A stretch of DNA of 42,848 nt from a virus (IMGVR_UViG_2563366985_000002:1-42848), one strand, 5' to 3'; shown: positions 1 through 19,916, numbered from the stretch's first letter. Numbers and translations are program-made. The notes: generated by a model from the sequence alone, not told the origin.

Positions 1-1236
1 CTACGATAACCGCGCATTCAACATGGCTATCTGTTCGTCGTTCATGTCATCAATCCACATACCGTAAATTTCATACACCATCTGCGCAGTTTCATGCCCC
101 ATTTGGCTGGCTATAAATGCCGGGTTCGCTCCTGCCGTCAACAGCCAGCAGGCAAAAGTATGCCGCGTATGGTACGGATTACGGCGGCGAATACCAGCAC
201 GTTTTACTGCTGCATTCCACCTTGCCCCCAAACTGCTTACCGAGTAATAAGGTTTTTGTTTTCCGTTACACACCCTGGGCATGAAAACAAAATGCAGTTT
301 TTGCTTTTCGGTTCTGCCGTACTCCCGATGATAAAAGGTGATTTCGCTTTTGCGATGATGCCCGGTCAGTTTGTATTGCTCCTTCAGTGCTTCAAGAGCA
401 GGCTGCAGTAGTGTTACTGTTCGGATCCCGGCATTTGTTTTTGGGGGACCGAACATATCAAGTATCGTCAGGTTTCTTCTGACATTCACTATTCCCTTTT
501 CGAGATCCACATCCTCCCACGCCAGAGCTGCCAGTTCCCCGTGACGAAGTCCTGAGTAAACGGCAAATTTCCACAAGTTCTGGCTCTGTCCTTTTTCACT
601 TTCCATTAATGCATTGAATTCTGTTTTAGATAACGGATCAGGCTTTATTCTGTTTCGCTGTAATTTTTTTACTCCTTCAAATGGTTTGGTTGATATAAAT
701 CCCGACTGATACGCAAAACGCAACAGCGAACAGAGCAGGGCGATATAGTTATCAACTGTGCGCACGGTTCTTCCTTTTTTGTTGGATCTTGGATTATCCA
801 GGTAAAGCGTTTCTCCATGCAGCAGTTCATTCCGGTAGTTTAAGATATCGCTATAACGAATATGTGATATCGGGGTACTTTCACAAATTATTATTCTGAG
901 TGTTTTTAATTGTGATTTCGTTTTCTTCATTGTGTTTGTTGTTAACTCTGTCTCTTTAATTTTTGTCCAGATATCACAAAGCTCTCCGAACGTTTTTATG
1001 ACTCTCGTTGTCACCATTTTTGCCCCAGTGCTGGACTGGGGAAAACGTCTTAAATACTCAAATTCACCGGAGTTTATTTCATGAACTATCAGCGATCTTA
1101 AATTTCCGGCCTTTTTAATATTACTGTTTGTAATCTCCCAGCCTTTTAATGTTTCCCGACATCGTTTTCCTCGAAACATGAACCAGATGCGAATGTATCT
1201 ACCTCTAATCTCGACACCTGTTGGTAATTTAGACAT
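1..1236 (-). CDS. intR: Phage integrase, tyrosine recombinase (Rac-type)
   Basis: 411-aa ORF; C-terminal tyrosine-recombinase motifs (R..HTRHT..Y region); translation recognised as Rac IntR; sits at prophage left end next to excisionase. Confidence 0.9.
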   Translation of the reverse strand: MSKLPTGVEIRGRYIRIWFMFRGKRCRETLKGWEITNSNIKKAGNLRSLIVHEINSGEFEYLRRFPQSSTGAKMVTTRVIKTFGELCDIWTKIKETELTTNTMKKTKSQLKTLRIIICESTPISHIRYSDILNYRNELLHGETLYLDNPRSNKKGRTVRTVDNYIALLCSLLRFAYQSGFISTKPFEGVKKLQRNRIKPDPLSKTEFNALMESEKGQSQNLWKFAVYSGLRHGELAALAWEDVDLEKGIVNVRRNLTILDMFGPPKTNAGIRTVTLLQPALEALKEQYKLTGHHRKSEITFYHREYGRTEKQKLHFVFMPRVCNGKQKPYYSVSSLGARWNAAVKRAGIRRRNPYHTRHTFACWLLTAGANPAFIASQMGHETAQMVYEIYGMWIDDMNDEQIAMLNARLS

Positions 1237-1237
1237 A

Positions 1238-1453
1238 TCATGAGTCTTTGATAAACTGATTTATCTTTGGATAGTTGTACCAGATAATCCCTCGTTTGCT
1301 GTCTGGCTTACCTAAAGGAGATACTCGTTTGAAGTGGAAGCCCTCCACCCAACAGTTCTGGCGGTATGCTTCAATTTGTCTGGCCCCCAGACCAGTGCGA
1401 AGCATCAGGCCGTATTCAACCATCCACTCTTCATTAAAGATTACTTGTGCCAT
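1238..1453 (-). CDS. Excisionase-like protein (Rac XisR/YdaQ-like)
   Basis: Small ORF immediately upstream of int with stop 1 nt from int start; start placed at the internal Met ([10 protein letters not shown]...) giving 71 aa; position typical of xis. Confidence 0.65.
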
Positions 1454-1531
1454 CGCATCACCTCTGGCAGGCGCCAATGTTAGACTGAAATTGACGCCCG
1501 ATGTTGATTATTAATAATCAGCTATGAAGTT

Positions 1532-1741
1532 TTAATTTGAATACAATGCAATTCTCGAGGACTGAAGTTTCTCGCAATTAAAATTTATCAGTTTTACTTT
1601 CTGCTCTCTGGAAACGCCTGCTTCTTTTTTACCTGAGAGCATTTTTTCGCATTCTGATTTCGTTAGTTTAGATTTTGAATATCTTGTCCAGTTAGTAGGA
1701 GTGCCACCTTCCTTTTCAATAGTGGCGGTAATTTTATACAT
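1532..1741 (-). CDS. ydaC: Small prophage protein YdaC-like
   Basis: ORF with GAGGTG Shine-Dalgarno before the MYKITATIEKEGG start; 69 aa; sits between ralR and xis as in Rac. Confidence 0.5.
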   Translation of the reverse strand: MYKITATIEKEGGTPTNWTRYSKSKLTKSECEKMLSGKKEAGVSREQKVKLINFNCEKLQSSRIALYSN

Positions 1742-1928
1742 GAACACCTCCATTATTATTTCCAGTGGTTCGTTTATTCCATCTTTCGAGTGCTTCTTTT
1801 TCACTTCCACCATAACCGGTTCGGGATTCGCATCCGTTACACTTCGCTCGGTAATATCCTGAAATGGCTTTCACCGTTACTGATGGACAACCACAAAATG
1901 GACATGGTTTAACATTGTCATATCTCAT
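1734..1928 (-). CDS. ralR: Restriction-alleviation protein, Lar family (RalR)
   Basis: 64-aa product MRYDNVKPCPFCGCPSVTV...CNGCESRTGYGG with two Cys pairs (zinc-ribbon-like); recognised as Rac RalR/Lar. Confidence 0.8.
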   Translation of the reverse strand: MRYDNVKPCPFCGCPSVTVKAISGYYRAKCNGCESRTGYGGSEKEALERWNKRTTGNNNGGVHV

Positions 1929-1984
1929 AATTTTTCTCATAAAAAATATTTCAAGTTGGCGGTGCATTACACCGCCAGGCTGAA

Positions 1985-2794
1985 TTATTCCTCTGAATTA
2001 TCGATTACACTGTATTCCCCGGTTAATACAGAGGAATCTGCAGGATCGATTGTCAGTGGTTCCTTTTCATCCATTGATACTGCACGCTGGATCTCAATTG
2101 ATACGGGCAGATATTTGAACAGGCGACGAATAGCCGTTTTCTTTGCCATTTCTTCCCAGTGAGTTACCCACGGCCCGTTATTACCAGCTTTACTCAGGCT
2201 GCGCACCAGCTCAATCTGTTTGCGCGTCATAACTTCAAACTGAGTACCTCCGTCTTTCAGTCTTGCGACAGCATAGACGTGGGTAACCGGGGCATCTTCG
2301 TTTTCTCCCGGGCGGTGTATTAACTTTTCATCAAGGCCAAATTCGAAGCTAAACTCGTCACCTTCACGGACAACACGGGCTGACAGGCTGGCGATTTGAC
2401 CAGAACGGCGAGCCAGATCAATCATGCCGCGATAGCCAATGATTAGCTGAACGTTCTTTTTACCGCTCTTTTCGTTTTTATTACCAAAAGGCAGTAAATA
2501 TGCATGACCGAGGGCGCTACCTGGCTCAAGTCCGAGCTGTGAACACTGTACGATCGCACTGACAAAACTCATAGTGTCACAGTTTCCTAACGCCGGAACT
2601 TTACGAATTTCTGTGGTGGCGATACGGATCATACGTTCAGCCGTCATATGGCGTGGAAGAGCTGCTGCCAGTTGCTCTTTCATTGATGGCTGGTTAATAA
2701 AACTAATCACGTCGCTATTTTTAACTGCTGCTGGTGCACGGTTTCCCTGAGTTTTTTGCAGATCGGCTTTTGCGATTGGTGGTTGCTTAGTCAT
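1985..2794 (-). CDS. recT: RecT single-strand annealing recombinase
   Basis: Translation from [16 protein letters not shown]... recognised as RecT (269 aa); start trimmed from the longer six-frame ORF; overlaps recE stop as in the recET operon. Confidence 0.9.
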
Positions 2795-5387
2795 TTGCAT
2801 ATTCCTTAGCCCAGCGGGGCAGTGATAATGTCTTAATAGCTGGCCATTCATCGGTATTCAGGCAGTCAGACAGGGTTCGCAGATTGCGGTGATATTCCTG
2901 TTGACCTGCCAGTTTTGCTTCTTCGCCCATCATGAAAATTTCAACCGGATAACGTCCGCATTCAATAGTTGTGCTGGCAACCAGAAAAACGAAAGTTGGC
3001 TGCACTCCAAACTGTGCTTCATAACCGTCACTGTAGAATGCATCCTGAACGTGATAGCGGTAGTCGTAATAAGCGGTTTTGAATCGTTGAATATCCGCCG
3101 TAGTTTTCACGTCCATGATCCAGTGAAATTCAGGGATAATTTTGTCCGGACGGCACCGACACAAAATTCCTGTTTCAGGATCTTCCCAGTAAATTGATGA
3201 TTCAGCGTGTCCGGCGCTTTCAACAAGCCATTGCCCCAGCGGCAAAGCCATAACGCTTTGATACATGAGTTCAATTTTCCGGCCTTCTTCCGCAGTGATA
3301 ACCGTTTTTCCTGTGCTTGCGCATTCCATCAGAAACGCTTTCTCTTCTTCTTTTCCGGCGTTTGTACGGCGGTTAAATTCAGGTGCTACGATAAAGCGGT
3401 TACTGAATTCTTCCGGTTCAAGTACCCGGCAGTGGAAAGCAGTTCCTAAATCGAGCGTTTTTGTCTTTGTGGTGTCCACGGGGGCATTTTTACGCCACAA
3501 ATATAGTGCCGGAGTATCAGCAATGTCATCGAGCTGAGACTTACTGATACCGGGACCCGCGTGGTAATTCTCATTCGAAATTCCGTAATAAATACCTGGC
3601 TCTATGTCTTCTACGATTACGGGATCTGCGACTTCGCCAGTTTCATCACTGCAATCGCGATGCGGATCGCTGCCAGCATTCTCATTGTGCGGATGTTCAG
3701 CGCCTTCCATTTCCTCCGGATCATTTTCCTTAGCTTCAACCTGACTCTCTTCATCGAATGTTTCCTGGTATGTTGCGTCGCCCATCACCGCACCACAGTC
3801 AGGGCAGTTATCCCCGCCAGTCTGGCCGCAGGCATTGCAGGCTATTTCCGGTTCCTGTTGCACTACTGGCTCAGGTTGATTCATATCTGGGCTGGTTTTT
3901 TCCGTTTCTGGCTGGTTCTGGTACACACAATCGCGAGTCTGGATCCCCTTTACCCATTTCGGATCGTTCGGGTCGCTAATTCCGTCAACAAATTCACCAC
4001 GTGATGCAGCAAGCAATTTATCGTCATCGACAGGATTTTTTGATGGAATGTTTTTCCGGGCTTCATGGAGTTCTGCCCGCAGTTCCTGATATTTCGCATC
4101 AACAGAATTTACCTGTGACTGAGCATCCAGCGGCTGCGTGTCCTGATGATGTTCAGTTGCGTCCGGTTCCATTGTTTCAGCCTCTCCCTGTTCAACTGCC
4201 GTTGTTCCAGATGGTTGCGGTTTTTCTTCATCATCCTGTTTTCCTTCTTCTGTTACTCGCTGCGGCATCGGGGCAGAGGAGCGACCGCAGGCAATATCCA
4301 CGATTTCCGGATCAGGGTTGGCATGATCGGTTTCAGTCAGTACTTTGTTCAGATATTCAGTGACGTGCGCGGGGATGACCTCGATCCCAATTGGTGCTTC
4401 TTTTACGGACGCAACCACGATGGCGCGGGAATAATCCAGCCCGCCAGGCATGGTGATGAATTTGTCGCGGAAAACAGAAAAGGGCGGTTTATTTTCAGCG
4501 ATAATTTCCTCAATGCGTTTAGCGTGTGCCGGATGAAGGTTATAGATGTCCAGATCCATTGAACGGGCCAGTACGCCAGTGGCTACGTCGCGCGCCAGTG
4601 ACGTCAGATCGTGTACGAAACCTTCGCCGCGATCGGTGAGGTTTCCGCCGCCAGCATTAGCACCGGAAGCCGTGCGAGTGATGTGTGAAACACGATTACC
4701 CTTCATCCACTCTTTTGTCAGCAGTCCTCGATCGGTGTAGTCAGCGTTCAGGTATGCTTCGAAAAAAGCAGTTATCAGTCCCAGGTTTGAATTACCAGGA
4801 TTAGGGAAAACTTTGTCAGTGTCACGAACCAGTTTGTGGAGTTCGCGAATTTCCAGCGGGTCGAGCAGGCTGGTTTTGTGGGAAACAGCCAGGGCAGTAA
4901 CAGCCGGTAGTTCTTCAGCCCGAGCAATGTGTAATGCCTGGAGTCCGTCGCGTGAAACGTGCGTTACCGGTTTTTCGCTGCCGTGTTGAGCAAGCCAACG
5001 AATGGGCAGTTCCTGGCCAGAAATTGGGAGTAGCATATTCTCCTCAATCTCAGTCATGTCTTCGCCGTTGACGTTGGTATTGCCTTGATAGTGAGCGTTG
5101 TCTGGTGCTGCTCCCGGTTTTAGTTCCCATGTCATGGAGTCTTTGCTGAGTTGATAGCGTTCACTCCAGGTAAAATCGATCTCACCTTCAGCGGGCAGGT
5201 CATTAACGACAGGAAAATTCGTGGCAACAGCTTTAAAATAGCTGCTCAGTTTTTTACCTGACTTAACGATCAGGTAGTCCAGAGTGGCACAGGTCGATTC
5301 AAAATCGTTGCTTGCCCACAGGACGACGTCAGGTTCACCGGATGATTTTTTCGCTTTCCGTAACAGGAAGAGTGGTTTTGTGCTCAT
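2787..5387 (-). CDS. recE: Exodeoxyribonuclease VIII (RecE)
   Basis: 866-aa ORF recognised as RecE; directly upstream of and overlapping recT. Confidence 0.9.
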
Positions 5388-5495
5388 TGTTTTTTAACCT
5401 CAACTCAGATTAAAATTCGTTTTGTTCAGTGAATGATCTTGCCGGATACACACTGTTCATAGCCTGCGCCATACGCAGGCTATTTCTTTCAGATT

Positions 5496-5765
5496 TCACC
5501 TTTTAATTTCATTGCAATTAGAGTTGCCAGAAATTCGGCTTTTTTTTTCTGCGGGCAGATTCTTTCCGATATGCACCAGGCACATTTTTTTGACACCTTC
5601 ATCAAGTGTTTTTACGTTGCCTGATGGACCATCGATATCAACCACAGTGAATGGGGTTTCTTTATTTTCTGTTTTAATTACGTAGCCAATGCGCTTTCCT
5701 TCCAGATTCACCTCGTGAACAATGTCATCGGTAGTTACAACAGTGGCTTCATAATTGGTAATCAT
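5496..5765 (-). CDS. racC: RacC-like prophage protein
   Basis: Translation MITNYEATVVTTDDIVHEVNLEGKRIGYV... recognised as RacC N-terminus; C-terminal tail after a T9 run at about 5536-5544 looks different from what I recall, so a length variant or frameshift is possible. Confidence 0.6.
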   Translation of the reverse strand: MITNYEATVVTTDDIVHEVNLEGKRIGYVIKTENKETPFTVVDIDGPSGNVKTLDEGVKKMCLVHIGKNLPAEKKSRISGNSNCNEIKR

Positions 5766-5839
5766 GTTTTTCTCCTTAATTAAGGTTGAGCGAATACCTG
5801 CCATTTCTGGCATAAATTCAGTTTCGAATAGTCAATTAA

Positions 5840-6010
5840 TTAAAGTTCATGTGCCATCTGGTCTTTTTCGGCACAAGCTTCACTGCAATATTTTCTCGGT
5901 TCGTCTTTTGATAAAATCCCGTGCATGAAGTGAAGCATTCTTTCAATAGCTTTGCTTTCTTCAACGTCTTTTTTGCAAAGGTGGTAAGCACATTTTATTT
6001 TCTTAGTCAT
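5840..6010 (-). CDS. ydaE: Small zinc-ribbon-like protein YdaE
   Basis: Hand-translated 56-aa [59 protein letters not shown] (absent from the ORF track because under 60 aa); its ATG overlaps the kilR stop (ATGA). Confidence 0.6.
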   Translation of the reverse strand: MTKKIKCAYHLCKKDVEESKAIERMLHFMHGILSKDEPRKYCSEACAEKDQMAHEL

Positions 6011-6231
6011 CACCATGACTCCGCCTTTACAGGTAAACCATCACGACCGAGGAAGACTTTAATCATGCGGTCAGTAATGAATGTTTTTGTGGTCAGGTTA
6101 CGAATATATAGTTTTCGCTTTTTAATATTGTTTGCCGAGGCAATATATGTCCGGCCTTCATGAAGAACATAATCGCCAGGAGTCACACACTGACGTGGTA
6201 TTTCATCAGTTCCGAAGTGATGTGCAATCAT
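6010..6231 (-). CDS. kilR: KilR, FtsZ-targeting cell-division inhibitor
   Basis: 73-aa product [40 protein letters not shown]... recognised as Rac KilR; start trimmed from the 77-aa ORF. Confidence 0.75.
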
Positions 6232-6672
6232 AATTATCTCCATTTTTACAAATGAACTTTGTTGATGCGGTGTCTGGTGCCTCCAGGTGACTGCAACCAG
6301 TTAACAATTACAGTCGGCTTTCCCACCCAAACCAATAAGGACTAACATGACTTTTAACTGTGCCACGTGCGCTTAGCCGCATTCACCGCATCACAAAATT
6401 TACTTTAAAAAGGGCGGACATCAGCCGAACTTCAAGAAAAAAACTGATGCCGCCAGGACTACACACAGCAATGTCGTTATTTACAACCGGAGGCGCACTC
6501 CCACCATTTAAATTTAACAGACAAGACCGACTCTTTATGGATATCGGAAATGCGCCTTCGTGTTGTGCCCGGTTTTATTTCACCACCTCCGGGCTTCGGT
6601 GGTCTCGGCTATACCCCTACAGCGAGAGCTTGTGTTAACATTTCAATACCCTTACAGTTGAGAGTTATTGAT

Positions 6673-7161
6673 ATGTTGGATGTATTTACTCCATTGTTGA
6701 AACTTTTTGCTAACGAGCCACTCGAAAGACTTATGTATACGATTATCATTTTTGGTCTCACTCTCTGGCTGATACCGAAAGAGTTTACTGTCGCATTCAA
6801 TGCTTATACTGAAATACCTTGGCTCTTTCAGATTATCGTTTTTGCCTTTTCTTTCGTGGTCGCCATTTCCTTCTCAAGATTGCGAGCACATATTCAAAAG
6901 CATTATTCATTACTACCAGAGCAACGAGTATTGCTTCGTTTATCTGAGAAAGAAATCGCTGTATTTAAAGATTTCCTTAAAACAGGAAATCTTATTATCA
7001 CTTCTCCTTGCCGTAACCCGGTTATGAAAAAATTAGAACGGAAGGGCATCATTCAACATCAGAGTGATAGCGCAAACTGTTCTTATTATCTCGTCACCGA
7101 AAAATACTCCCATTTTATGAAGTTATTCTGGAACAGCAGGAGTAGACGTTTTAATCGTTAG
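6673..7161 (+). CDS. sieB: Superinfection exclusion protein SieB
   Basis: 162-aa product from MLDVFTPLLKLFANEPLERLMYTIIIFGLTLWLIPKEF... with hydrophobic membrane-spanning segments; recognised as Rac SieB; upstream part of the six-frame ORF is extension. Confidence 0.8.
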   Translation: MLDVFTPLLKLFANEPLERLMYTIIIFGLTLWLIPKEFTVAFNAYTEIPWLFQIIVFAFSFVVAISFSRLRAHIQKHYSLLPEQRVLLRLSEKEIAVFKDFLKTGNLIITSPCRNPVMKKLERKGIIQHQSDSANCSYYLVTEKYSHFMKLFWNSRSRRFNR

Positions 7162-7313
7162 CTTACTGTGTGCTTCTCCAACCATCGGCGCGCACCAGTT
7201 TCGGTTTTAAATGTTTTGCTTTTGGTATACGTCATGGCAGTGAACGTTCCATCCTGGTTGGGGAACACGCCGCACACCAGGGATTCGTTGTTGCCGAGGT
7301 CGATTTTTTGCAT
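7158..7313 (-). CDS. ydaF: Small prophage protein YdaF
   Basis: Hand-translated 51-aa ORF MQKIDLGNNESLVCGVFPNQDGTFTAMTYTKSKTFKTETGARRWLEKHTVS; convergent with sieB, 4-bp overlap. Confidence 0.5.
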   Translation of the reverse strand: MQKIDLGNNESLVCGVFPNQDGTFTAMTYTKSKTFKTETGARRWLEKHTVS

Positions 7314-7323
7314 TTTGCGAATC

Positions 7324-7458
7324 TCACATCTTGTTGCTACGTATAGCGACTTCTGCCTGCCAGAGATCCCAGTCGTTGCTGCGTAAAGCCTGCACAGCCT
7401 GGTTGTAAGTGATACCGCAACAATCCATCAAATACTGAACTACTTCGTAATGCACCAT
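7324..7458 (-). CDS. ydaG: Small prophage protein YdaG
   Basis: Hand-translated 44-aa ORF MVHYEVVQYLMDCCGITYNQAVQALRSNDWDLWQAEVAIRSNKM, first gene downstream of the leftward promoter. Confidence 0.5.
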   Translation of the reverse strand: MVHYEVVQYLMDCCGITYNQAVQALRSNDWDLWQAEVAIRSNKM

Positions 7459-7627
7459 CTTATCTCTCCCCTTAACGCCGGGTGGCGGAACTAACTGCTG
7501 CACTGCAAAATTTGAATCCCGCCGTCATGTTCATACGCCTCGGGCTGGCTACTTAACCCCTTACCACTGCCTGGTAACTCGAAGTATTGCCCGGCGTTCT
7601 GTGGGGCGGGGTGGGTGGTATGCTGGA

Positions 7628-7693
7628 ACTATAGGTAATGCCTAATTGATTGTCAATAGGCTATGCCTAATGTTTTGAGCGTAACCTAATAGG
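7628..7693 (-). promoter_or_regulatory. Leftward promoter/operator (PL/OL-like): TTGACA-17 bp-TATAGT on minus strand with (G/A)CCTAAT operator motifs
   Basis: Minus-strand reading gives TTGACA (plus 7651-7656) and TATAGT (plus 7628-7633) with a 17-nt spacer; three CCTAAT motifs at 7640-7646, 7665-7671, 7684-7690; inverted copy of the 8296-8340 region. Confidence 0.5.
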
Positions 7694-7766
7694 TGATGGC
7701 GACAGCAGAAAGTGATGGGGGGGTTAAATAACGGAATCCAGGAGTTTTCCGTCAGACCATATAAGT

Positions 7767-8243
7767 TTAAGTTCCAGTTTTTGTGATGTTCTGGCTTTTC
7801 CGTTCAGATTCAAGAGCTTTCAGATACTTACCCACTTTCATTTCCATCGCTGCTATGTAGGCGCGAACATCGTGGTCAACCCAATCTGGTTCTGTAGCAT
7901 TTCCAGATAACAGGAAAGCTACAATCGCTCTTATTTCATCAGAGGCTGCTTGATAAAGGTTGTTTATATCTAAAAGTTCACTTTTTGTATCTGAATTGGT
8001 GGGGGTTGGTATGGGGTATTCGTTAAGCCCCCAATGCTCTGGACCAACAACATCAGAAAAGAAACGCCATAATTCTGGAAGTTTATCTTTACTTATAGAG
8101 CCTTTCTTAATCCAGTCATAAATTGATGGTGGTTGGACTTTAAAGTGGCGTGCGACCTCCGCCTTTGATTTGACGGATCCCGATGCGATTTTTTTGTTAA
8201 TGGCCTGCTCTATCGCTCGGCCTAAGTCTTTACCACTAAGCAT
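7767..8243 (-). CDS. racR: Prophage repressor RacR
   Basis: 158-aa ORF recognised as RacR; divergent from ydaS; N-terminal HTH-like segment. Confidence 0.85.
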   Translation of the reverse strand: MLSGKDLGRAIEQAINKKIASGSVKSKAEVARHFKVQPPSIYDWIKKGSISKDKLPELWRFFSDVVGPEHWGLNEYPIPTPTNSDTKSELLDINNLYQAASDEIRAIVAFLLSGNATEPDWVDHDVRAYIAAMEMKVGKYLKALESERKSQNITKTGT

Positions 8244-8264
8244 TGCTTAATATTCTCCTATGCG

Positions 8265-8346
8265 CATTACATTAGGCAATCCCTACCCTTACTGCATTAG
8301 GCACAGCCTATTGACAATTGCGTTAGGCGTCGCCTAATATTTCTGT
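8265..8346 (+). promoter_or_regulatory. Rightward promoter/operator (PR/OR-like) for ydaS: TTGACA-TAATAT with ATTAGGC operator repeats
   Basis: TTGACA at 8311-8316, TAATAT at 8335-8340; ATTAGGC at 8271-8277 and 8296-8302, GTTAGGC at 8322-8328, inverted GCCTAAT at 8332-8338; lies between divergent racR and ydaS. Confidence 0.5.
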
Positions 8347-8366
8347 GTGTTTTTGGAGTTCATTCG

Positions 8367-8663
8367 ATGAAAAAAGAGAACTATTCATTCAAGCAAGCTT
8401 GTGCTGTTGTCGGTGGGCAATCAGCAATGGCTAGGCTTTTAGGTGTATCACCTCCAAGCGTAAATCAATGGATCAAAGGGGTACGTCAATTGCCTGCCGA
8501 GAGATGTCCAGCAATTGAACGTGCAACAAGAGGTGAGGTTCTGTGCGAAGAACTTCGTCCTGATATTGACTGGTCATATTTACGACGTTCGGCATGTTGT
8601 TCGCAGAATATGTCAGTGAAGCAACTAAATGACAGTAACAAATCCTCATTTGATCATACCTGA
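8367..8663 (+). CDS. ydaS: Cro-like HTH protein YdaS
   Basis: 98-aa ORF with HTH-like segment (QSAMARLLGVSPPSVNQWIKG); recognised as Rac YdaS; first gene rightward of racR. Confidence 0.8.
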   Translation: MKKENYSFKQACAVVGGQSAMARLLGVSPPSVNQWIKGVRQLPAERCPAIERATRGEVLCEELRPDIDWSYLRRSACCSQNMSVKQLNDSNKSSFDHT

Positions 8664-8685
8664 AACATCAAGAGGCAAATGATTC

Positions 8686-9108
8686 ATGAAAATCAAGCAT
8701 GAGCACATCGAATCAGTGTTGTTTGCCCTAGCAGCCGAAAAAGGGCAGGCATGGGTAGCCAATGCAATTACTGAAGAATATCTGCGCCAGGGGGGCGGCG
8801 AATTGCCCCTGGTTCCAGGCAAGGACTGGAACAATCAGCAGAATATCTATCACCGTTGGTTGAAAGGTGAAACGAAAACGCAAAGAGAAAAAATTCAGAA
8901 GCTGATCCCAGCAATTCTGGCAATCCTTCCGCGCGAGCTGCGTCACCGACTCTGCATCTTCGATACCCTGGAACGCCGTGCATTACTGGCGGCGCAGGAA
9001 GCGTTAAGTACGGCAATTGATGCGCATGATGATGCAGTCCAAGCCGTTTACCGGAAAGCGCATTTCAGCGGCGGCGGTTCTTCCGACGATTCTGTCATTG
9101 TTCATTAA
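8686..9108 (+). CDS. ydaT: YdaT protein (co-expressed with YdaS)
   Basis: 140-aa ORF with AGAGG Shine-Dalgarno, immediately after ydaS; recognised as Rac YdaT. Confidence 0.8.
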   Translation: MKIKHEHIESVLFALAAEKGQAWVANAITEEYLRQGGGELPLVPGKDWNNQQNIYHRWLKGETKTQREKIQKLIPAILAILPRELRHRLCIFDTLERRALLAAQEALSTAIDAHDDAVQAVYRKAHFSGGGSSDDSVIVH

Positions 9109-9120
9109 GCAAAAGTTTCC

Positions 9121-9978
9121 ATGCTGTTTGTGCTTATTCTAAGCCACCGGGCAGCATCATACGGGGCAATTATGGCCGCATTACCATACATGCAACTGTA
9201 CATAGCTGATTACCTGGCTGACACCATGCATTTGTCAGCAGAGGAGCATGGTGCGTATTTGTTGCTGATGTTCAATTACTGGCAAACAGGAAAGCCAATA
9301 CCTAAAAACAGGCTGGCAAAAATTGCCCGTCTGACTAACGAGCGATGGGCTGATGTTGAACCATCCTTGCAGGAGTTTTTTTGCGATAACGGCGAGGAAT
9401 GGGTGCATCTTCGGATTGAGGAAGATCTGGCATCAGTCAGGGAAAAATTAACCAAAAAATCAGCCGCAGGAAAAGCATCTGTTCAGGCCAGAAGAAGCAG
9501 AAAGGAAGCAGATGTTCAAACAAAACAAGAGAGAAATTTAACAGGTGTTCAAACAGATGTTGAAGTGGTGTTTGAACATGATGTCAACACAAAGGCAACT
9601 AATAAAGATACAGATAAAGATCTAAAAACAGATCCCCCCCTAAATCCCCCCCGGGGGAATCGAGGTGTCAAAAAGTTTGACCCTCTGGATATTACTTTGC
9701 CGAACTGGATTTCTGTCTCGCTTTGGCGTGAGTGGGTTGAATTTCGCCAGGCATTGCGAAAACCGATTCGAACGGAGCAGGGCGCTAACGGGGCGATACG
9801 GGAGCTGGAAAAATTCCGCCAGCAGGGTTTTTCACCTGAGCAGGTGATTCGACACAGCATCGCCAATGAATACCAGGGCTTGTTCGCGCCGAAAGGTGTT
9901 CGACCTGAGACGTTACTCCGACAGGTTAACACCGTCTCGTTACCGGATAGTGCGATCCCGCCAGGCTTCAGGGGGTAA
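9121..9978 (+). CDS. ydaU: Replication initiation-like protein YdaU
   Basis: 285-aa ORF placed where lambda O would be; recognised as Rac YdaU. Confidence 0.7.
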   Translation: MLFVLILSHRAASYGAIMAALPYMQLYIADYLADTMHLSAEEHGAYLLLMFNYWQTGKPIPKNRLAKIARLTNERWADVEPSLQEFFCDNGEEWVHLRIEEDLASVREKLTKKSAAGKASVQARRSRKEADVQTKQERNLTGVQTDVEVVFEHDVNTKATNKDTDKDLKTDPPLNPPRGNRGVKKFDPLDITLPNWISVSLWREWVEFRQALRKPIRTEQGANGAIRELEKFRQQGFSPEQVIRHSIANEYQGLFAPKGVRPETLLRQVNTVSLPDSAIPPGFRG

Positions 9979-9984
9979 CTGACC

Positions 9985-10731
9985 ATGAAAAATATTGCGA
10001 CAGGCGATGTTCTTGAACGTATCCGCAGACTGGCCCCGTCACATGTAACCGCGCCATTCAAGACGGTAGCGGAGTGGCGCGAGTGGCAACTTTCCGAAGG
10101 CCAGAAACGTTGTGAGGAGATCAACCGTCAGAATCGTCAGTTGCGGGTGGAAAAAATTCTGAATCGCTCTGGCATCCAGCCATTGCACCGCAAATGCTCG
10201 TTTTCGAATTACCAGGTGCAGAACGAAGGGCAGCGATACGCGTTGAGTCAGGCGAAATCCATCGCTGATGAACTGATGACCGGGTGTACAAATTTTGCGT
10301 TCAGCGGAAAACCTGGTACCGGGAAGAACCACTTAGCGGCAGCTATCGGGAATCGCCTGCTGAAAGACGGTCAGACAGTGATTGTGGTTACCGTGGCTGA
10401 TGTTATGAGTGCCCTGCACGCCAGCTATGACGATGGGCAGTCAGGCGAAAAATTTTTGCGGGAACTGTGCGAAGTGGATCTGCTGGTTCTTGATGAAATT
10501 GGCATTCAGCGCGAGACGAAAAACGAGCAGGTGGTACTGCACCAGATTGTTGATCGCCGGACAGCGTCGATGCGCAGCGTGGGGATGCTGACAAACCTGA
10601 ACTATGAGGCCATGAAAACATTGCTCGGCGAGCGGATTATGGATCGCATGACCATGAACGGCGGGCGATGGGTGAATTTTAACTGGGAGAGCTGGCGTCC
10701 GAATGTCGTCCAGCCAGGAATTGCGAAGTAA
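9985..10731 (+). CDS. ydaV: DnaC-like helicase loader (AAA+ ATPase) YdaV
   Basis: 248 aa; Walker [16 protein letters not shown] and Walker B LLVLDEIG; recognised as Rac YdaV. Confidence 0.85.
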
Positions 10732-10753
10732 TTTTTACCGGGAGAAAAATTTA

Positions 10754-11515
10754 ATGGAGACTGTTTTTGACGCACTGAAAGCAATGGGAAAAGCCACATC
10801 CATAGAACTTGCTGCGCGACTTGATATCAGTCGTGAAGAAGTGCTGAACGAACTATGGGAACTGAAAAAGGCTGGTTTTGTTGATAAAAGCGCGTACACC
10901 TGGCGTGTGGCTGATAACAATGTTCAGCAGGAACAGCCAGCGCAGGCAGAACTGCCGGAAGAAATCACCACAGCAACAGTAGCGAAAATCTCAGAGTGCG
11001 ATTTAACCGCGACGATTGAACAACGAGGACCACAAACGGCTGATGAGCTGGCTACATTGTTTGGTACCACATCACGCAAAGTGGCTTCAACGCTGGCAAT
11101 GGCAATCAGCAAAGGTCGTCTGATTCGCGTAAATCAGGGCGGTAAATTTCGTTACTGCATACCGGGCGATAATTTACCAGCAGAGCCGAAAGCAGCATCG
11201 GTAGCGGAAACTGATGGTAAGGCCTTTCCTCAGACCGCAGGTGTTGCGTTACCAGTACAGGAGGCTGCAACACAGGAAGATATTAAAACAGAAACTGTGG
11301 CGGACATTGTGCAGTCGCTGCCATCGTTTACTGAAACGCGAGCGGATGACCTGGTTTTACCATCACTGCATATGGCAAACCGCGAACTGCGTCGGGCGAA
11401 AAATCATGTCCAGAAGTGGGAGCGTGTCTGCGCCGCGCTGCGTGAGTTGAACAAGCACAGGGATATTGTACGACAGATTACTGATTCTTCCCGCCATGTT
11501 GCATCGGAAAAGTGA
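10754..11515 (+). CDS. ydaW: YdaW-like protein, apparently intact
   Basis: ORF starting [13 protein letters not shown]... with GGAGAAA Shine-Dalgarno; follows ydaV; full-length here. Confidence 0.6.
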
Positions 11516-11530
11516 TTGCCGGAGGCACCT

Positions 11531-11908
11531 ATGGCAAAAGTATTTACACCAGAAGAGCGAGAAAAAATTAAAGGACAGGTTGTTGAACTTGTACCTCTGA
11601 GCGGTCGCGAGACGTTACGGGCTCTGGAGGCTAAAACCGGTGCATCAAGGTATTACATAAGCACTCTCGCCAGAGAACTAGTCGCCAGTGGTGATGTTTA
11701 CAATTCAGGCTACGGATTATTCCCGTCTGAGCAGGCGCGTAAAGACTGGCAAAACGCCCGCAAAAAACTATCAAGGACAAAGGTGAAGAAACCGGTTGTG
11801 GTTGATCCTGACCTTATCTGGTCATTACCAGACGGAGAAATACGCCGTTACGACAGGCGTCTGAACATAATCTGTCGCGAGTGCCTGAAGAGTGAAGTTA
11901 TGCAGTGA
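11531..11908 (+). CDS. Hypothetical nin-region protein
   Basis: ORF with GGAGG Shine-Dalgarno 5 nt before the ATG (MAKVFTPEEREKIKGQ...); no family recognised by eye. Confidence 0.45.
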   Translation: MAKVFTPEEREKIKGQVVELVPLSGRETLRALEAKTGASRYYISTLARELVASGDVYNSGYGLFPSEQARKDWQNARKKLSRTKVKKPVVVDPDLIWSLPDGEIRRYDRRLNIICRECLKSEVMQ

Positions 11909-12198
11909 ATATTGGCATTTTATCAGTGAATCATGCTGCATTTATAGGTATTTTTAGTTTAAATAGCATTGGTTCATATGTAAATTGACATTTTTATGGT
12001 ACAGGGTAGAACTAGTGTGGTTGCCTGCTTTGTGCCAGCTGCGGACATTACTTAAACAAATGCTGTATTATTTTATCGGTAAAGGTGGTAAAGAGTGGCC
12101 CTGAAGTGTCAAGATAATTATTAGCAGTATATATCATGCAAGAACCCATTTAATTTAGGCATGAAATTAATTTTAAAAAAGTAGAGGATTCCAATTAT

Positions 12199-15554: not shown

Positions 15555-16032
15555 TAGATGTTGGCTTCCGTCGGACTTGGCGTATTTAAAGAAGTGCTGG
15601 TAGTGACTGGTTGTTGTATTCCATTTCTACAGAACAAAATCACAGAAACTATACCCAATAGTTGTATTGAATCACTGACGAGACAGCCTCATATTTATCA
15701 GGGCAGGTGCACGTCCAATACAGGAGGTTGTCGTGCTGGTTCTCAAGTGTGCGTTGGCTATTGCGGCTGTGGTGGCAATTTATTGTCTTGCTATTGTTCT
15801 TATGGATCGCCTTTCTGATTGATTTCATATTGGCGAAGTAAAGGGGGTTAAATAGTATGGCTGCGGGGGCTTGAGGCTATCTGCCTTGGGCATGAAAACC
15901 AAAGGCAGATAGAAAAAGTCCCAGTTGATATTACGCATCCGGCAAGAGGCTTAACATTAATCTGGGGCCCAATCTATGCCTTACAAACGTAGGTTAGTCT
16001 CTTACGTGCTGAAAGGCAAGAAGAAGCGGGCT

Positions 16033-16188
16033 ATGAAGCAGCAAAAGGCGATGTTAATCACCCTGATCGTCATCTGTTTAACCGTTATAGTGACGGTACT
16101 GGTAACGAGGAAAGACCTCTGCGAGGTACGAATCCGAACCGACCAGACGGAGGTCGCTGTCTTCACAGCTTACGAACTTGGGGAGTAA
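16033..16188 (+). CDS. hok: Hok/Gef-family type I toxin (membrane peptide)
   Basis: 51-aa product MKQQKAMLITLIVICLTVIVTVLVTRKDLCEVRIRTDQTEVAVFTAYELGE, closely resembling HokD/RelF; the six-frame ORF carries a 19-codon in-frame upstream extension. Confidence 0.8.
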   Translation: MKQQKAMLITLIVICLTVIVTVLVTRKDLCEVRIRTDQTEVAVFTAYELGE

Positions 16189-19762: not shown

Positions 19763-19838
<76 letters not shown>

Positions 19839-19841
19839 TAT

Positions 19842-19916
<75 letters not shown>

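What the first reader, a model, noticed from the sequence alone, without database searches (positions are those of the whole stretch)
7628..8346. racR repressor gene flanked by two near-identical promoter/operator modules in inverted orientation
The reverse complement of 7640-7680 (CATTAGGCATAGCCTATTGACAATCAATTAGGCAT) closely matches 8296-8330 (CATTAGGCACAGCCTATTGACAATTGCGTTAGGC). Each carries a consensus TTGACA -35 and repeated ATTAGGC motifs that are probably RacR binding sites. This gives a lambda-like layout: repressor between a rightward promoter for ydaS-ydaT-replication genes and a leftward promoter for ydaG-ydaF-kilR-recET. The leftward copy has a near-consensus TTGACA-17-TATAGT.
Basis: seen in the sequence. 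Interest (0 to 1): 0.5.

Follow-up and report, generated by a model that had tools for sequence, protein, structure and literature searches.

The report
Rac prophage left operator-promoter (OL/PL)
The repressor gene racR of the E. coli Rac prophage has the same 43-base promoter-plus-repressor-site cassette on both sides, pointing outwards as in phage lambda; the right copy is already characterised, and the left copy looks like an undescribed but expected switch for the kil, recombination and excision genes.

Summary
The window is a Rac-type prophage whose immunity region is about 99.97% identical to E. coli K-12 over window 4001-11002.

racR (7767-8243, minus strand) is flanked by two inverted copies of one cassette: operator, TTGACA, operator, -10.
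- Right copy (8297-8340): the published ydaS promoter, with mapped start site and RacR DNase I footprint.
- Left copy (7628-7670): two TTAGGC-N3-GCCTA-type sites 25 bp apart. The best sigma-70 match in the first 12 kb (TTGACA-17-TATAGT) is built into them and fires leftward toward ydaG, ydaF, kilR, recET, xisR and intR.

Support for the left copy:
- The only five close matches to the RacR operator consensus in 42.8 kb are these two plus three in the right region.
- The same downstream pair occurs in 9 of 10 repressor-homologue loci from seven genera, inside otherwise unrelated sequence.
- Among 41 E. coli-type variants, half-site bases almost never vary while the flanks do.
- Published RNA-seq shows 40-100-fold derepression of the leftward genes when RacR is depleted, even with a CRISPRi block inside racR.

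I found no paper describing this left site for Rac, though the sister prophage CP-933P has a validated equivalent. RacR binding and a transcription start at the left copy remain untested.

Verdict: a new member of a known kind, of modest interest.

The parts
7621..7621 (-). Predicted PL transcription start: an A, 7 nt after the -10 hexamer
   Evidence: Inferred from the position of the -10 hexamer. Not mapped experimentally.
7628..7633 (-). PL -10 hexamer TATAGT. Its first three bases (TAT) are the last bases of OL1.
   Evidence: Promoter scan, 11 of 12 matches with a 17-nt spacer. TAT/TAG follows the proximal operator in all 9 loci that have a left module.
7631..7645 (.). OL1, the promoter-proximal left operator. 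On the minus strand it reads TTAGGC-ATT-ACCTAT (2 mismatches to TTAGGCN3GCCTAA). It lies between -35 and -10 and overlaps the -10.
   Evidence: The half-sites are nearly invariant in 41 sequence variants.
7651..7656 (-). PL -35 hexamer TTGACA. Its first T is the last base of OL2.
   Evidence: TTGAC(A/T) is conserved in this position in all 9 left modules.
7656..7670 (.). OL2, the left operator abutting the -35. On the minus strand it reads TTAGGC-ATA-GCCTAT (1 mismatch). It lies 25 bp centre to centre from OL1.
   Evidence: In 41 variants only the N3 spacer varies.
7675..7689 (.). Possible weak third left site (OL3?). On the minus strand it reads TTAGGT-TAC-GCTCAA (3 mismatches), 19 bp from OL2.
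   Evidence: Only the TTAGGT half is conserved among E. coli variants and the other half varies freely. It is absent outside Escherichia. Doubtful.
7767..8243 (-). racR, the gene for the 158-aa Rac repressor
   Evidence: Weak HTH match in Pfam.
8236..8250 (.). Degenerate operator over the racR start codon (TTAAGC-AAT-GCTTAG on the minus strand). This is the published 'O3', which overlaps the binding site of the C protein of the Csp231I restriction-modification system.
   Evidence: PMC9638921.
8272..8286 (.). Right operator distal to the ydaS promoter: TTAGGC-AAT-CCCTAC (2 mismatches), in the racR promoter region
   Evidence: RacR DNase I footprint over the racR promoters (PMC9638921).
8297..8311 (.). 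OR2: TTAGGC-ACA-GCCTAT (1 mismatch), abutting the -35 of the ydaS promoter. This is the counterpart of OL2.
8311..8316 (+). PR (ydaS promoter) -35 hexamer TTGACA
   Evidence: Start site mapped by primer extension (PMC9638921).
8323..8337 (.). OR1: TTAGGC-GTC-GCCTAA, a perfect palindrome between -35 and -10 of the ydaS promoter. It is protected first at the lowest RacR concentration.
   Evidence: PMC9638921.
8335..8340 (+). PR -10 hexamer TAATAT. Its first three bases (TAA) are the last bases of OR1.
   Evidence: Replacing TAATAT with CCCGGG abolishes promoter activity (PMC9638921).
8367..8663 (+). ydaS, the Cro-like first gene of the rightward operon
   Evidence: Pfam YdaS_toxin and P22_Cro.
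7324..7458 (-). ydaG, the first gene downstream of PL, after a leader of about 160 nt
   Evidence: Pfam UBA-like match.
7158..7313 (-). ydaF (DUF1391), the second gene of the leftward operon. kilR, ydaE, racC, recE, recT, ralR, ydaC (position taken from the K-12 map, not checked in the window), xisR and intR follow on the same strand down to position 1.

Best explanation
racR sits between two outward-facing copies of one 43-bp promoter-operator cassette. The layout is operator, TTGACA, 5-6 nt, operator, then the rest of the -10. The last base of the upstream operator supplies the first T of the -35. The last three bases of the downstream operator supply the first three bases of the -10. RacR bound to either site of a cassette should therefore exclude RNA polymerase.

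The right copy is the established RacR-repressed ydaS-ydaT promoter, the equivalent of lambda PR/OR.

The left copy (7628-7670) is the equivalent of lambda PL/OL. It would be a strong sigma-70 promoter starting near 7621 and reading leftward through ydaG, ydaF, kilR, ydaE, racC, recE, recT, ralR, xisR and intR. RacR dimers on OL1 and OL2 would keep it off in the lysogen.

Loss of RacR opens both promoters together. That would explain the joint derepression of the replication-side genes and of the kil, recombination and excision genes.

Shown here: the sequence architecture, its statistical significance, its conservation and the pattern of constraint on it. Shown in the literature: the RacR motif, RacR binding and the promoter at the right copy, and derepression of the leftward genes on RacR depletion. 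Inferred: RacR occupancy of OL1/OL2, the PL start site, and cooperation between the left and right sites.
For: 1. Only five sites in the 42.8 kb window match TTAGGCN3GCCTAA with at most 2 mismatches. Two are in the racR-ydaG spacer, 25 bp apart, and three are in the racR-ydaS spacer.

2. The left promoter is the best sigma-70 consensus match in window 1-12000, at 11 of 12.

3. The left/right alignment score is 12 sd above shuffles.

4. The same downstream cassette (TTAGGC-N3-GCCTAT|TGACA-N5-TTAGGC-N3-RCCTAW|TAT) occurs in 9 of 10 racR-homologue loci. These are E. coli K-12, E. ruysiae, E. coli NCTC9112, Mixta, Morganella, Proteus, an Achromobacter MAG, Pigmentiphaga and Klebsiella phage KpF5. 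Repressor identity falls to about 56% over the full length. The sequence around the cassette shows no evident similarity between genera and the downstream ORFs differ. The chance expectation for such a pair is about 8e-6 per 2 kb.

5. In 41 distinct E. coli-type variants, 2 of 24 half-site columns vary, against 41 of 90 flank columns (Fisher p = 7e-4). Variation inside the operators falls mainly in the N3 spacers.

6. Literature:
- ATTAGGC / TAGGC-N3-GCCTA is the footprinted RacR site, and TTGACA/TAATAT is the mapped ydaS promoter (PMC9638921; PMC5700373).
- ydaG, ydaF, kilR, ydaE, racC, ydaC and ralA rise 40-70-fold, and xisR/intR about 100-fold, when racR expression is silenced (PMC6765115; PMC11014345).
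- The same genes rise when Cascade-CRISPRi is parked inside racR and racR mRNA falls 11-20-fold (bioRxiv 10.64898/2026.09.06.749655). That rules out read-through from the racR promoter as the source.
- CP-933P, a related prophage, has a GFP-validated PL with OL1-3 and the same -35/-10 as its PR (PMC8630535).
Against: - There is no direct evidence of RacR binding to the left sites. Published EMSA, footprinting and ChIP-qPCR used only the racR-ydaS region.
- No transcription start has been mapped near 7621.
- OL1 in K-12 departs from consensus at two positions (ACCTAT half-site), so its affinity may be low.
- One homologue locus, Klebsiella sp. R390 (L007), has no left pair within 2 kb. More distant Pseudomonas phage homologues were inconclusive.
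- Part of the leftward induction after RacR loss could be indirect, through YdaS/YdaT or through excision and replication of Rac.
- Rho/NusG-dependent termination also controls kilR (PMC4150792, PMC5793797).
Confidence: 0.8

Rival explanations
1. The left sites are real RacR sites but act mainly as an auxiliary operator. They would anchor a RacR-mediated DNA loop to the right operators, tightening repression of ydaS or autoregulating racR. They might also block racR read-through transcripts. The promoter look-alike would contribute little transcription.
For: - RacR is reported to form octamers (PMC11014345), as lambda CI does when it bridges OL and OR.
- There is no intrinsic terminator on the minus strand between the racR stop codon and the left sites. 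A bound repressor could therefore act as a roadblock there.
Against: - The -35 and -10 hexamers are as conserved as the operator half-sites, across genera and within E. coli. A pure looping site would not need them.
- The leftward genes are induced 40-100-fold while racR transcription is reduced or blocked (PMC6765115; bioRxiv 10.64898/2026.09.06.749655). That requires a promoter downstream of racR.
- This rival is compatible with the best explanation as an added function.
Confidence: 0.1
2. The leftward genes are expressed by read-through from the racR promoters, normally stopped by Rho/NusG (the 'trac' terminator). On this view the left module is irrelevant to their control.
For: - A Rho-dependent terminator inside racR was shown to limit transcription toward kilR (PMC4150792).
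- Repression of nusG by the small RNA OxyS induces kilR (PMC5793797).
- No intrinsic terminator follows racR.
Against: - When racR mRNA falls 11-100-fold, the leftward genes rise 40-100-fold. This happens even with a Cascade roadblock inside racR (PMC6765115, PMC11014345, bioRxiv 10.64898/2026.09.06.749655).
- Read-through does not explain the cross-genus conservation of a promoter-operator cassette downstream of the repressor gene.
- Read-through probably exists as a second, minor route.
Confidence: 0.05
3. The left copy is an inert relic of a duplication or of recombination between prophages. It has no present function, and the leftward genes respond indirectly, through YdaS, YdaT or the copy-number rise after excision.
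For: - Rac in K-12 is defective.
- Excision and transient replication follow RacR depletion (PMC11014345).
- YdaT is a transcription factor with sites inside Rac (PMC11879457).
Against: - Half-site, -35 and -10 positions are under clear constraint relative to their flanks.
- The cassette persists in seven genera within otherwise unrelated DNA, including a phage isolated from hospital wastewater (Klebsiella phage KpF5).
- The copy-number rise is unlikely to reach 40-100-fold.
Confidence: 0.05

Closest known systems
Bacteriophage lambda OL/PL and OR/PR flanking cI
   Same: - The repressor gene lies between two outward promoters, each overlapped by several dyad-symmetric operators with one shared consensus.
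- The leftward operon carries kil, recombination, xis and int.
- The rightward operon starts with a cro-like gene, then a cII-like gene and replication genes.
- The repressor is reported to form octamers.
   Different: - The operator sequence is unrelated: 15-bp TTAGGC-N3-GCCTAA, against lambda's 17-bp sites.
- There are two good left sites rather than three.
- The left and right clusters are only about 640-690 bp apart, against 2.4 kb in lambda, because no rexAB-type genes lie between repressor gene and PL in Rac.
- RacR has no S24 self-cleavage domain.
- No homologue of the lambda antiterminator N, and no nut site, was recognised downstream of PL.
- No intrinsic terminator separates racR from PL.
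PL933P with OL1-OL3 of prophage CP-933P (PaaR2 / YdaS / YdaT), PMC8630535
   Same: - It belongs to the same class of ydaS-ydaT immunity region.
- A second promoter beyond the repressor operon has -35/-10 elements identical to PR and operators like those at PR.
- It was shown with GFP fusions to be regulated by the repressor and by YdaS.
- The repressor forms octamers.
   Different: - The repressor (PaaR2) and its operator sequence (GTTTAGTAA-type repeats) are different.
- A toxin-antitoxin pair lies between the repressor gene and PL.
- It has been validated experimentally, whereas the Rac left module has not.
Published RacR operators O1-O3 (later described as four inverted repeats) in the racR-ydaS intergenic region, PMC9638921 / PMC11014345
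   Same: - The half-site is identical (T/A)TAGGC, with the same 3-nt spacer.
- The spacing between sites is 25-26 bp.
- The register relative to the TTGACA and -10 hexamers is the same.
   Different: - These sites lie upstream of racR and were footprinted. The left pair lies downstream of racR and was not included in any DNA fragment tested in those papers.
- The right proximal site is a perfect palindrome, whereas the left proximal site has two mismatches.

Membership tests
Lambdoid immunity region with paired OL/PL and OR/PR | The repressor gene is transcribed divergently from a cro-like gene, which is followed by a cII-like gene and replication genes | tested here: met
   racR is on the minus strand. 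ydaS (Pfam YdaS_toxin / P22_Cro), ydaT, ydaU and ydaV are on the plus strand.
Lambdoid immunity region with paired OL/PL and OR/PR | Several dyad-symmetric operators of one consensus overlap the rightward promoter | tested here: met
   Sites at 8272-8286, 8297-8311 and 8323-8337 overlap TTGACA-18-TAATAT. The footprint and start site are published (PMC9638921).
Lambdoid immunity region with paired OL/PL and OR/PR | A second cluster of operators of the same consensus, on the far side of the repressor gene, overlaps a leftward promoter | tested here: met
   Sites at 7631-7645 and 7656-7670 overlap TTGACA-17-TATAGT on the minus strand. The arrangement is conserved in 9 of 10 homologue loci.
Lambdoid immunity region with paired OL/PL and OR/PR | The leftward operon carries kil, recombination, and excision/integration genes | tested here: met
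   ydaG, ydaF, kilR, ydaE, racC, recE, recT, ralR, xisR and intR all lie on the minus strand from 7458 down to 1. No strong minus-strand intrinsic terminator lies between them.
Lambdoid immunity region with paired OL/PL and OR/PR | The repressor physically occupies the left operators and represses the left promoter | not testable with these tools
   Only indirect support exists: 40-100-fold derepression of the leftward genes on RacR depletion (PMC6765115, PMC11014345, bioRxiv 10.64898/2026.09.06.749655). I found no EMSA, footprint or ChIP on this fragment.
Lambdoid immunity region with paired OL/PL and OR/PR | Long-range cooperation (looping) between the left and right operators through repressor octamers | not testable with these tools
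   A RacR octamer was reported by size-exclusion chromatography (PMC11014345). Its authors assigned it to four sites in the right region. The left-to-right distance is 641-692 bp (this work).
RacR operator (TAGGC-N3-GCCTA inverted repeat) | Two 5-6-nt half-sites (T/A)TAGGC in inverted orientation, separated by exactly 3 nt | tested here: met
   OL2 is TTAGGC-ATA-GCCTAT and OL1 is TTAGGC-ATT-ACCTAT. The motif definition comes from PMC9638921.
RacR operator (TAGGC-N3-GCCTA inverted repeat) | Selective constraint falls on the half-site bases and not on the spacer or flanks | tested here: met
   Variable columns: 2 of 24 in half-sites, 2 of 6 in N3 spacers, 41 of 90 in flanks, across 41 variants. 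Fisher p = 7e-4 for half-sites against flanks.
Sigma-70 promoter | -35 and -10 hexamers close to consensus, with a 16-18-nt spacer | tested here: met
   TTGACA-17-TATAGT, 11 of 12, the best match in window 1-12000.
Sigma-70 promoter | A transcript 5' end about 7 nt downstream of the -10 | not testable with these tools
   No start-site data were available to me. The promoter is expected to be silent in wild-type lysogens.

The most novel reading that the evidence does not exclude
The RacR octamer may not sit on four sites of the right region alone, as has been proposed. Instead it may bridge OL1-OL2 and OR1-OR2 across a loop of only about 650-690 bp that encloses racR itself. The same OL-bound repressor would then act as a roadblock, stopping racR read-through transcripts from entering kilR. 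This would link repressor occupancy to the known Rho/NusG dependence of kilR silencing.

The 43-bp cassette, in which operator ends complete the -35 and -10, would be a portable unit shared by repressors with one DNA-binding domain and different C-terminal domains: RacR-type oligomerisation, or the S24 self-cleaving type.
Probability: 0.35. Interest if true: 0.5.

Novelty: new member of a known kind. Interest (0 to 1): 0.33.

Why it matters
RacR is one of the few essential transcription factors of E. coli K-12. Recent work treats it almost entirely as the repressor of ydaS-ydaT through the racR-ydaS intergenic region.

A second RacR-controlled promoter downstream of racR would have four consequences:
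- It gives a direct mechanism for RacR control of kilR, recET, ralR and xisR/intR: one repressor and two mirror-image promoters.
- It offers a different reading of the reported RacR octamer, as a left-right loop.
- It predicts which DNA must be included in in-vitro and reporter experiments. [quoted passage not shown]
- It supplies a compact, tightly repressible promoter cassette.

None of this would surprise a phage biologist. It fills a gap in the map of a model organism.

Tried and rejected
- **RNA in the PL leader.** Rfam found nothing in 7100-8450 at E <= 1. The whole-window hits (RalA, sok, two tRNAs) lie elsewhere. Folding the predicted leader (7455-7621, minus strand) gave z = -1.6, which is not significant. 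I therefore propose no put- or nut-like RNA element.
- **Third left operator (7675-7689).** It has 3 mismatches, only one half is conserved and the spacing is 19 bp. I treat it as doubtful.
- **Distant Pseudomonas phage homologues (L017-L019).** They have a related but different right-hand motif. No clear left pair was found, apart from two sites 81 bp apart in L017. This is inconclusive and was not used.
- **Co-variation of left and right operators.** I looked for changes in specificity that affect both sides together. I could not test this, because all homologues with a recognisable module share the TTAGGC half-site.
- **Literature.**
  - A full-text search for the left-module sequence in either orientation found no paper.
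  - Searches on RacR+ydaG, sbcA alleles and the kil gene found no description of a Rac PL/OL.
  - The 1996 kilR paper (PMID 8752325) is not held.
  - The cap on papers stopped further reading.
  - Older subscription papers on sbcA mutations and the Rac immunity region (Kaiser & Murray; the Clark laboratory) and the RegulonDB/EcoCyc curation could not be consulted. Prior description therefore cannot be fully excluded.
- **RefSeq annotation.** The NC_000913.3 annotation has no regulatory feature in this region.

Full report
**What the window is.** The 1.4 kb around the finding is 100% identical to E. coli K-12 strains. Window 4001-11002 aligns with MG1655 1,416,000-1,423,000 at 99.97%, so window coordinate + 1,411,998 gives the MG1655 coordinate.

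- racR 7767-8243 (-), ydaS 8367-8663 (+), ydaT 8686-9108 (+).
- ydaG 7324-7458 (-), ydaF 7158-7313 (-), sieB (+), kilR 6010-6243 (-).
- Further left on the minus strand: ydaE, racC, recE, recT, ralR, xisR and intR.

Beyond about 11 kb the window is not K-12's truncated Rac. It is a full-length Rac-type prophage with terminase and capsid genes.

**The observation.** The inverted repeat is real.
- The repeat finder gives arms 7649-7683 and 8284-8318, 35 nt at 83%.
- A gapped alignment of the two intergenic regions in inverted orientation scores 45. One thousand dinucleotide shuffles gave 16.5 +/- 2.4, maximum 28.
- The promoter scan picks out TTGACA-17-TATAGT on the minus strand (7656..7628, 11/12) and TTGACA-18-TAATAT on the plus strand (8311..8340, 10/12). 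These are the best and joint-second-best matches in the first 12 kb on either strand.
- TTAGGC is under-represented in the window as a whole: 9 copies against about 19 expected. Seven of the nine lie between 7640 and 8337.

**Anatomy.** I scanned the window for the palindrome TTAGGC-N3-GCCTAA, allowing two mismatches. This gives exactly five hits in 42,848 bases (shuffles 1.55 +/- 1.26).
- Left: 7631-7645 and 7656-7670.
- Right: 8272-8286, 8297-8311 and 8323-8337.
- A more degenerate site overlaps the racR start codon (8236-8250), and a doubtful one lies at 7675-7689.

Written in the direction of transcription, the two modules share one plan:
- Left: TTAGGCATAGCCTAT|TGACA atcaa TTAGGCATTACCTAT|AGT.
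- Right: TTAGGCACAGCCTAT|TGACA attgcg TTAGGCGTCGCCTAA|TAT.

The last T of the upstream operator is the first T of the -35. The last three bases of the downstream operator are the first three of the -10. A repressor dimer on either site must therefore clash with RNA polymerase. The operators are 25 bp apart centre to centre on the left and 26 bp apart on the right.

**What is already known.** The right module is well characterised.
- Krishnamurthi et al. noted three GCCTAA/TTAGGC repeats in the 123-bp racR-ydaS region. They showed RacR binding by EMSA, thermal shift and ChIP-qPCR, and repression of a GFP fusion (PMC5700373).
- Mruk's group mapped a single ydaS start site downstream of TTGACA/TAATAT and abolished the promoter by mutating TAATAT.
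- They footprinted RacR, with the ydaS promoter protected first, and derived the ATTAGGC monomer motif and the (T/A)TAGGC-N3-GCCTA(T/A) operators (PMC9638921).
- They later described four inverted repeats upstream of racR and a RacR octamer (PMC11014345).

None of the papers I could read mentions sites downstream of racR. 'ydaG' appears in them only in lists of induced genes. A full-text search for the left-module sequence in either orientation found nothing. The MG1655 RefSeq record has no regulatory feature there.

In the related prophage CP-933P, a PL with OL1-3 and the same -35/-10 as its PR was predicted by analogy with lambda. It was confirmed with GFP fusions (PMC8630535).

**Evidence that the left module is functional.**

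*Conservation across genera.* I fetched loci encoding RacR homologues. A pair of operators 25 bp apart, with TTGAC(A/T) between them and TAT/TAG after them, lies downstream of the repressor gene in 9 of 10 loci:
- E. coli K-12, E. ruysiae and E. coli NCTC9112.
- Mixta (62% repressor identity), Morganella (57%) and Proteus (60%).
- An Achromobacter MAG and Pigmentiphaga, where only the N-terminal domain is homologous, at about 75%.
- Klebsiella phage KpF5 (56%).

The sequence on either side of the cassette shows no evident similarity between genera, and the downstream ORFs differ.

In KpF5 and Pigmentiphaga the cassette lies 1.4 and 1.2 kb past the repressor gene. Other DNA lies between: in KpF5 an annotated DUF450 gene, and in Pigmentiphaga a stretch I did not examine. 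This is the position rexAB occupies in lambda. The chance expectation for such a pair is about 8e-6 per 2 kb. Klebsiella sp. R390 lacks it within 2 kb.

*Constraint within E. coli-type sequences.* Eighty-three loci gave 41 distinct racR-downstream spacers. Only 2 of 24 half-site columns vary, against 24 of 45 and 17 of 45 columns in the two flanks (Fisher p = 7e-4). Changes inside the operators fall mostly in the N3 spacers. The -35 and -10 vary only in single sequences. Against the 86%-identical NCTC9112 locus, the 47 bases from CATTAGGC to TATAGTT carry one substitution, while the flanks diverge more.

*Published transcriptomes.*
- Silencing racR with the C protein of the Csp231I restriction-modification system lowers racR mRNA about 100-fold. 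It raises ydaC, kilR and ralA more than 70-fold, ydaF, ydaG, ydaE and racC about 40-fold, and xisR/intR about 100-fold (PMC6765115, PMC11014345).

In these experiments transcription through racR is reduced or physically blocked while the downstream genes rise. Read-through from the racR promoters therefore cannot be the source. A RacR-repressed promoter between racR and ydaG is required, and 7656-7628 is the only strong candidate.

**Mechanism proposed.** In the lysogen, RacR dimers fill OL1/OL2 and OR1/OR2 and shut both outward promoters. When RacR falls, both fire. PR gives YdaS, YdaT and the replication genes. PL, starting near 7621, gives ydaG, ydaF, kilR, racC, recET, ralR, xisR and intR.

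No strong intrinsic terminator lies on the minus strand along this operon, so one transcript could reach int unless Rho stops it.

Two further points are inference only:
- RacR is reported to form octamers, and the left and right clusters are only 641-692 bp apart. A lambda-style OL-OR loop enclosing racR is therefore plausible and would be an alternative to the published placement of the octamer on four right-hand sites.
- No intrinsic terminator separates racR from OL. RacR bound at OL could therefore also block racR read-through transcripts. It would act alongside the Rho/NusG-dependent 'trac' termination that protects cells from kilR (PMC4150792, PMC5793797).

**Rivals.** I rate each of these well below the main explanation, for the reasons given under each rival:
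- a looping-only operator;
- read-through from the racR promoters as the sole route to the leftward genes;
- an inert duplication relic.

The first two are better seen as possible additional functions or routes.

**What is missing.** There is no binding assay, ChIP or start-site map covering 7600-7700. K-12's OL1 is imperfect (ACCTAT half-site). I could not read the older subscription literature on sbcA mutations and the Rac immunity region, nor the RegulonDB/EcoCyc curation. Prior description cannot be excluded.

**Comparison and verdict.** This works like lambda OL/PL and like PL933P of CP-933P. Every sequence-level feature that defines a lambdoid left operator-promoter is met. The biochemical features could not be tested here.

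It differs from lambda in four ways:
- operator sequence;
- two good left sites rather than three;
- a very short left-right distance;
- a repressor without an S24 domain.

The right half and the motif are already known. The left half appears undescribed for Rac but is what analogy predicts. I class it as a new member of a known kind, with modest interest (0.33). It is useful for interpreting RacR biology and for designing experiments, and it would not surprise a specialist.

Noticed in passing
window 10000-34000; tRNAs at 19763-19835 and 19842-19913; sok at 15865-16038: The window is not K-12's truncated Rac beyond about 11 kb. It matches full-length Rac-type prophages of other E. coli strains, with trkG, terminase, a P22-type capsid gene and a DUF262 gene. 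It also carries two tRNA genes and a sok antitoxin RNA. The K-12-type immunity region therefore also occurs in an apparently complete prophage.
   Followed up: partly
L009 2001-3098, L010 2001-2906, L017 2501-3361: In Achromobacter, Pigmentiphaga and Pseudomonas-phage homologues, the RacR-type N-terminal DNA-binding domain is fused to a Peptidase_S24 (LexA/CI self-cleavage) domain. The two Burkholderiales loci use the same TTAGGC-N3-GCCTAA operators on both sides of the gene. The enterobacterial RacR looks like a CI-type repressor whose SOS-cleavable domain was replaced.
   Followed up: partly
window 7596-7621 and 7480-7560, minus strand: The first 25 nt or so of the predicted PL transcript are very C-rich and G-poor (AUACCACCCACCCCGCCCCACAGAAC), which resembles a Rho-loading site. 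Further into the 160-nt leader, a stretch stays about 88% conserved against the otherwise 86%-identical NCTC9112 locus. There is no Rfam match and the fold is not significant.
   Followed up: partly
L014 2576-3876 (Klebsiella phage KpF5); L010 2907-4113: In these two loci, 1.2-1.4 kb lies between the repressor gene and the left operator pair. In KpF5 this includes an annotated DUF450 gene. This is the position lambda uses for rexAB, so it may be a slot for lysogen-expressed accessory or defence genes.
   Followed up: no
window 7324-7458 (ydaG): The 44-aa YdaG, the first product of the predicted PL operon, matches the Pfam UBA-like domain UBA_4 above the curated cut-off (24.1 bits against 21.8). 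I know of no assigned function.
   Followed up: no
L003 (JARKOR010000130.1): A 5.2-kb contig binned into a 'Candidatus Nanosynbacter' metagenome-assembled genome encodes a RacR 100% identical to the E. coli protein. It is most likely E. coli DNA mis-binned into that MAG.
   Followed up: no
window 7675-7689: A third, degenerate TTAGGT half-site lies upstream of OL2, at 19-bp rather than 25-bp spacing. The TTAGGT half is conserved in E. coli-type variants while the other half varies freely. It could be a decayed third operator or a monomer contact.
   Followed up: partly
window 8236-8250 and 8220-8225: The degenerate operator over the racR start codon (TTAAGC-AAT-GCTTAG) keeps its position in all ten RacR-homologue loci examined (L004-L010, L014, L015 and K-12). 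It always begins 7 nt before the ATG. This suggests conserved autoregulation of a leaderless or short-leader repressor mRNA.
   Followed up: partly
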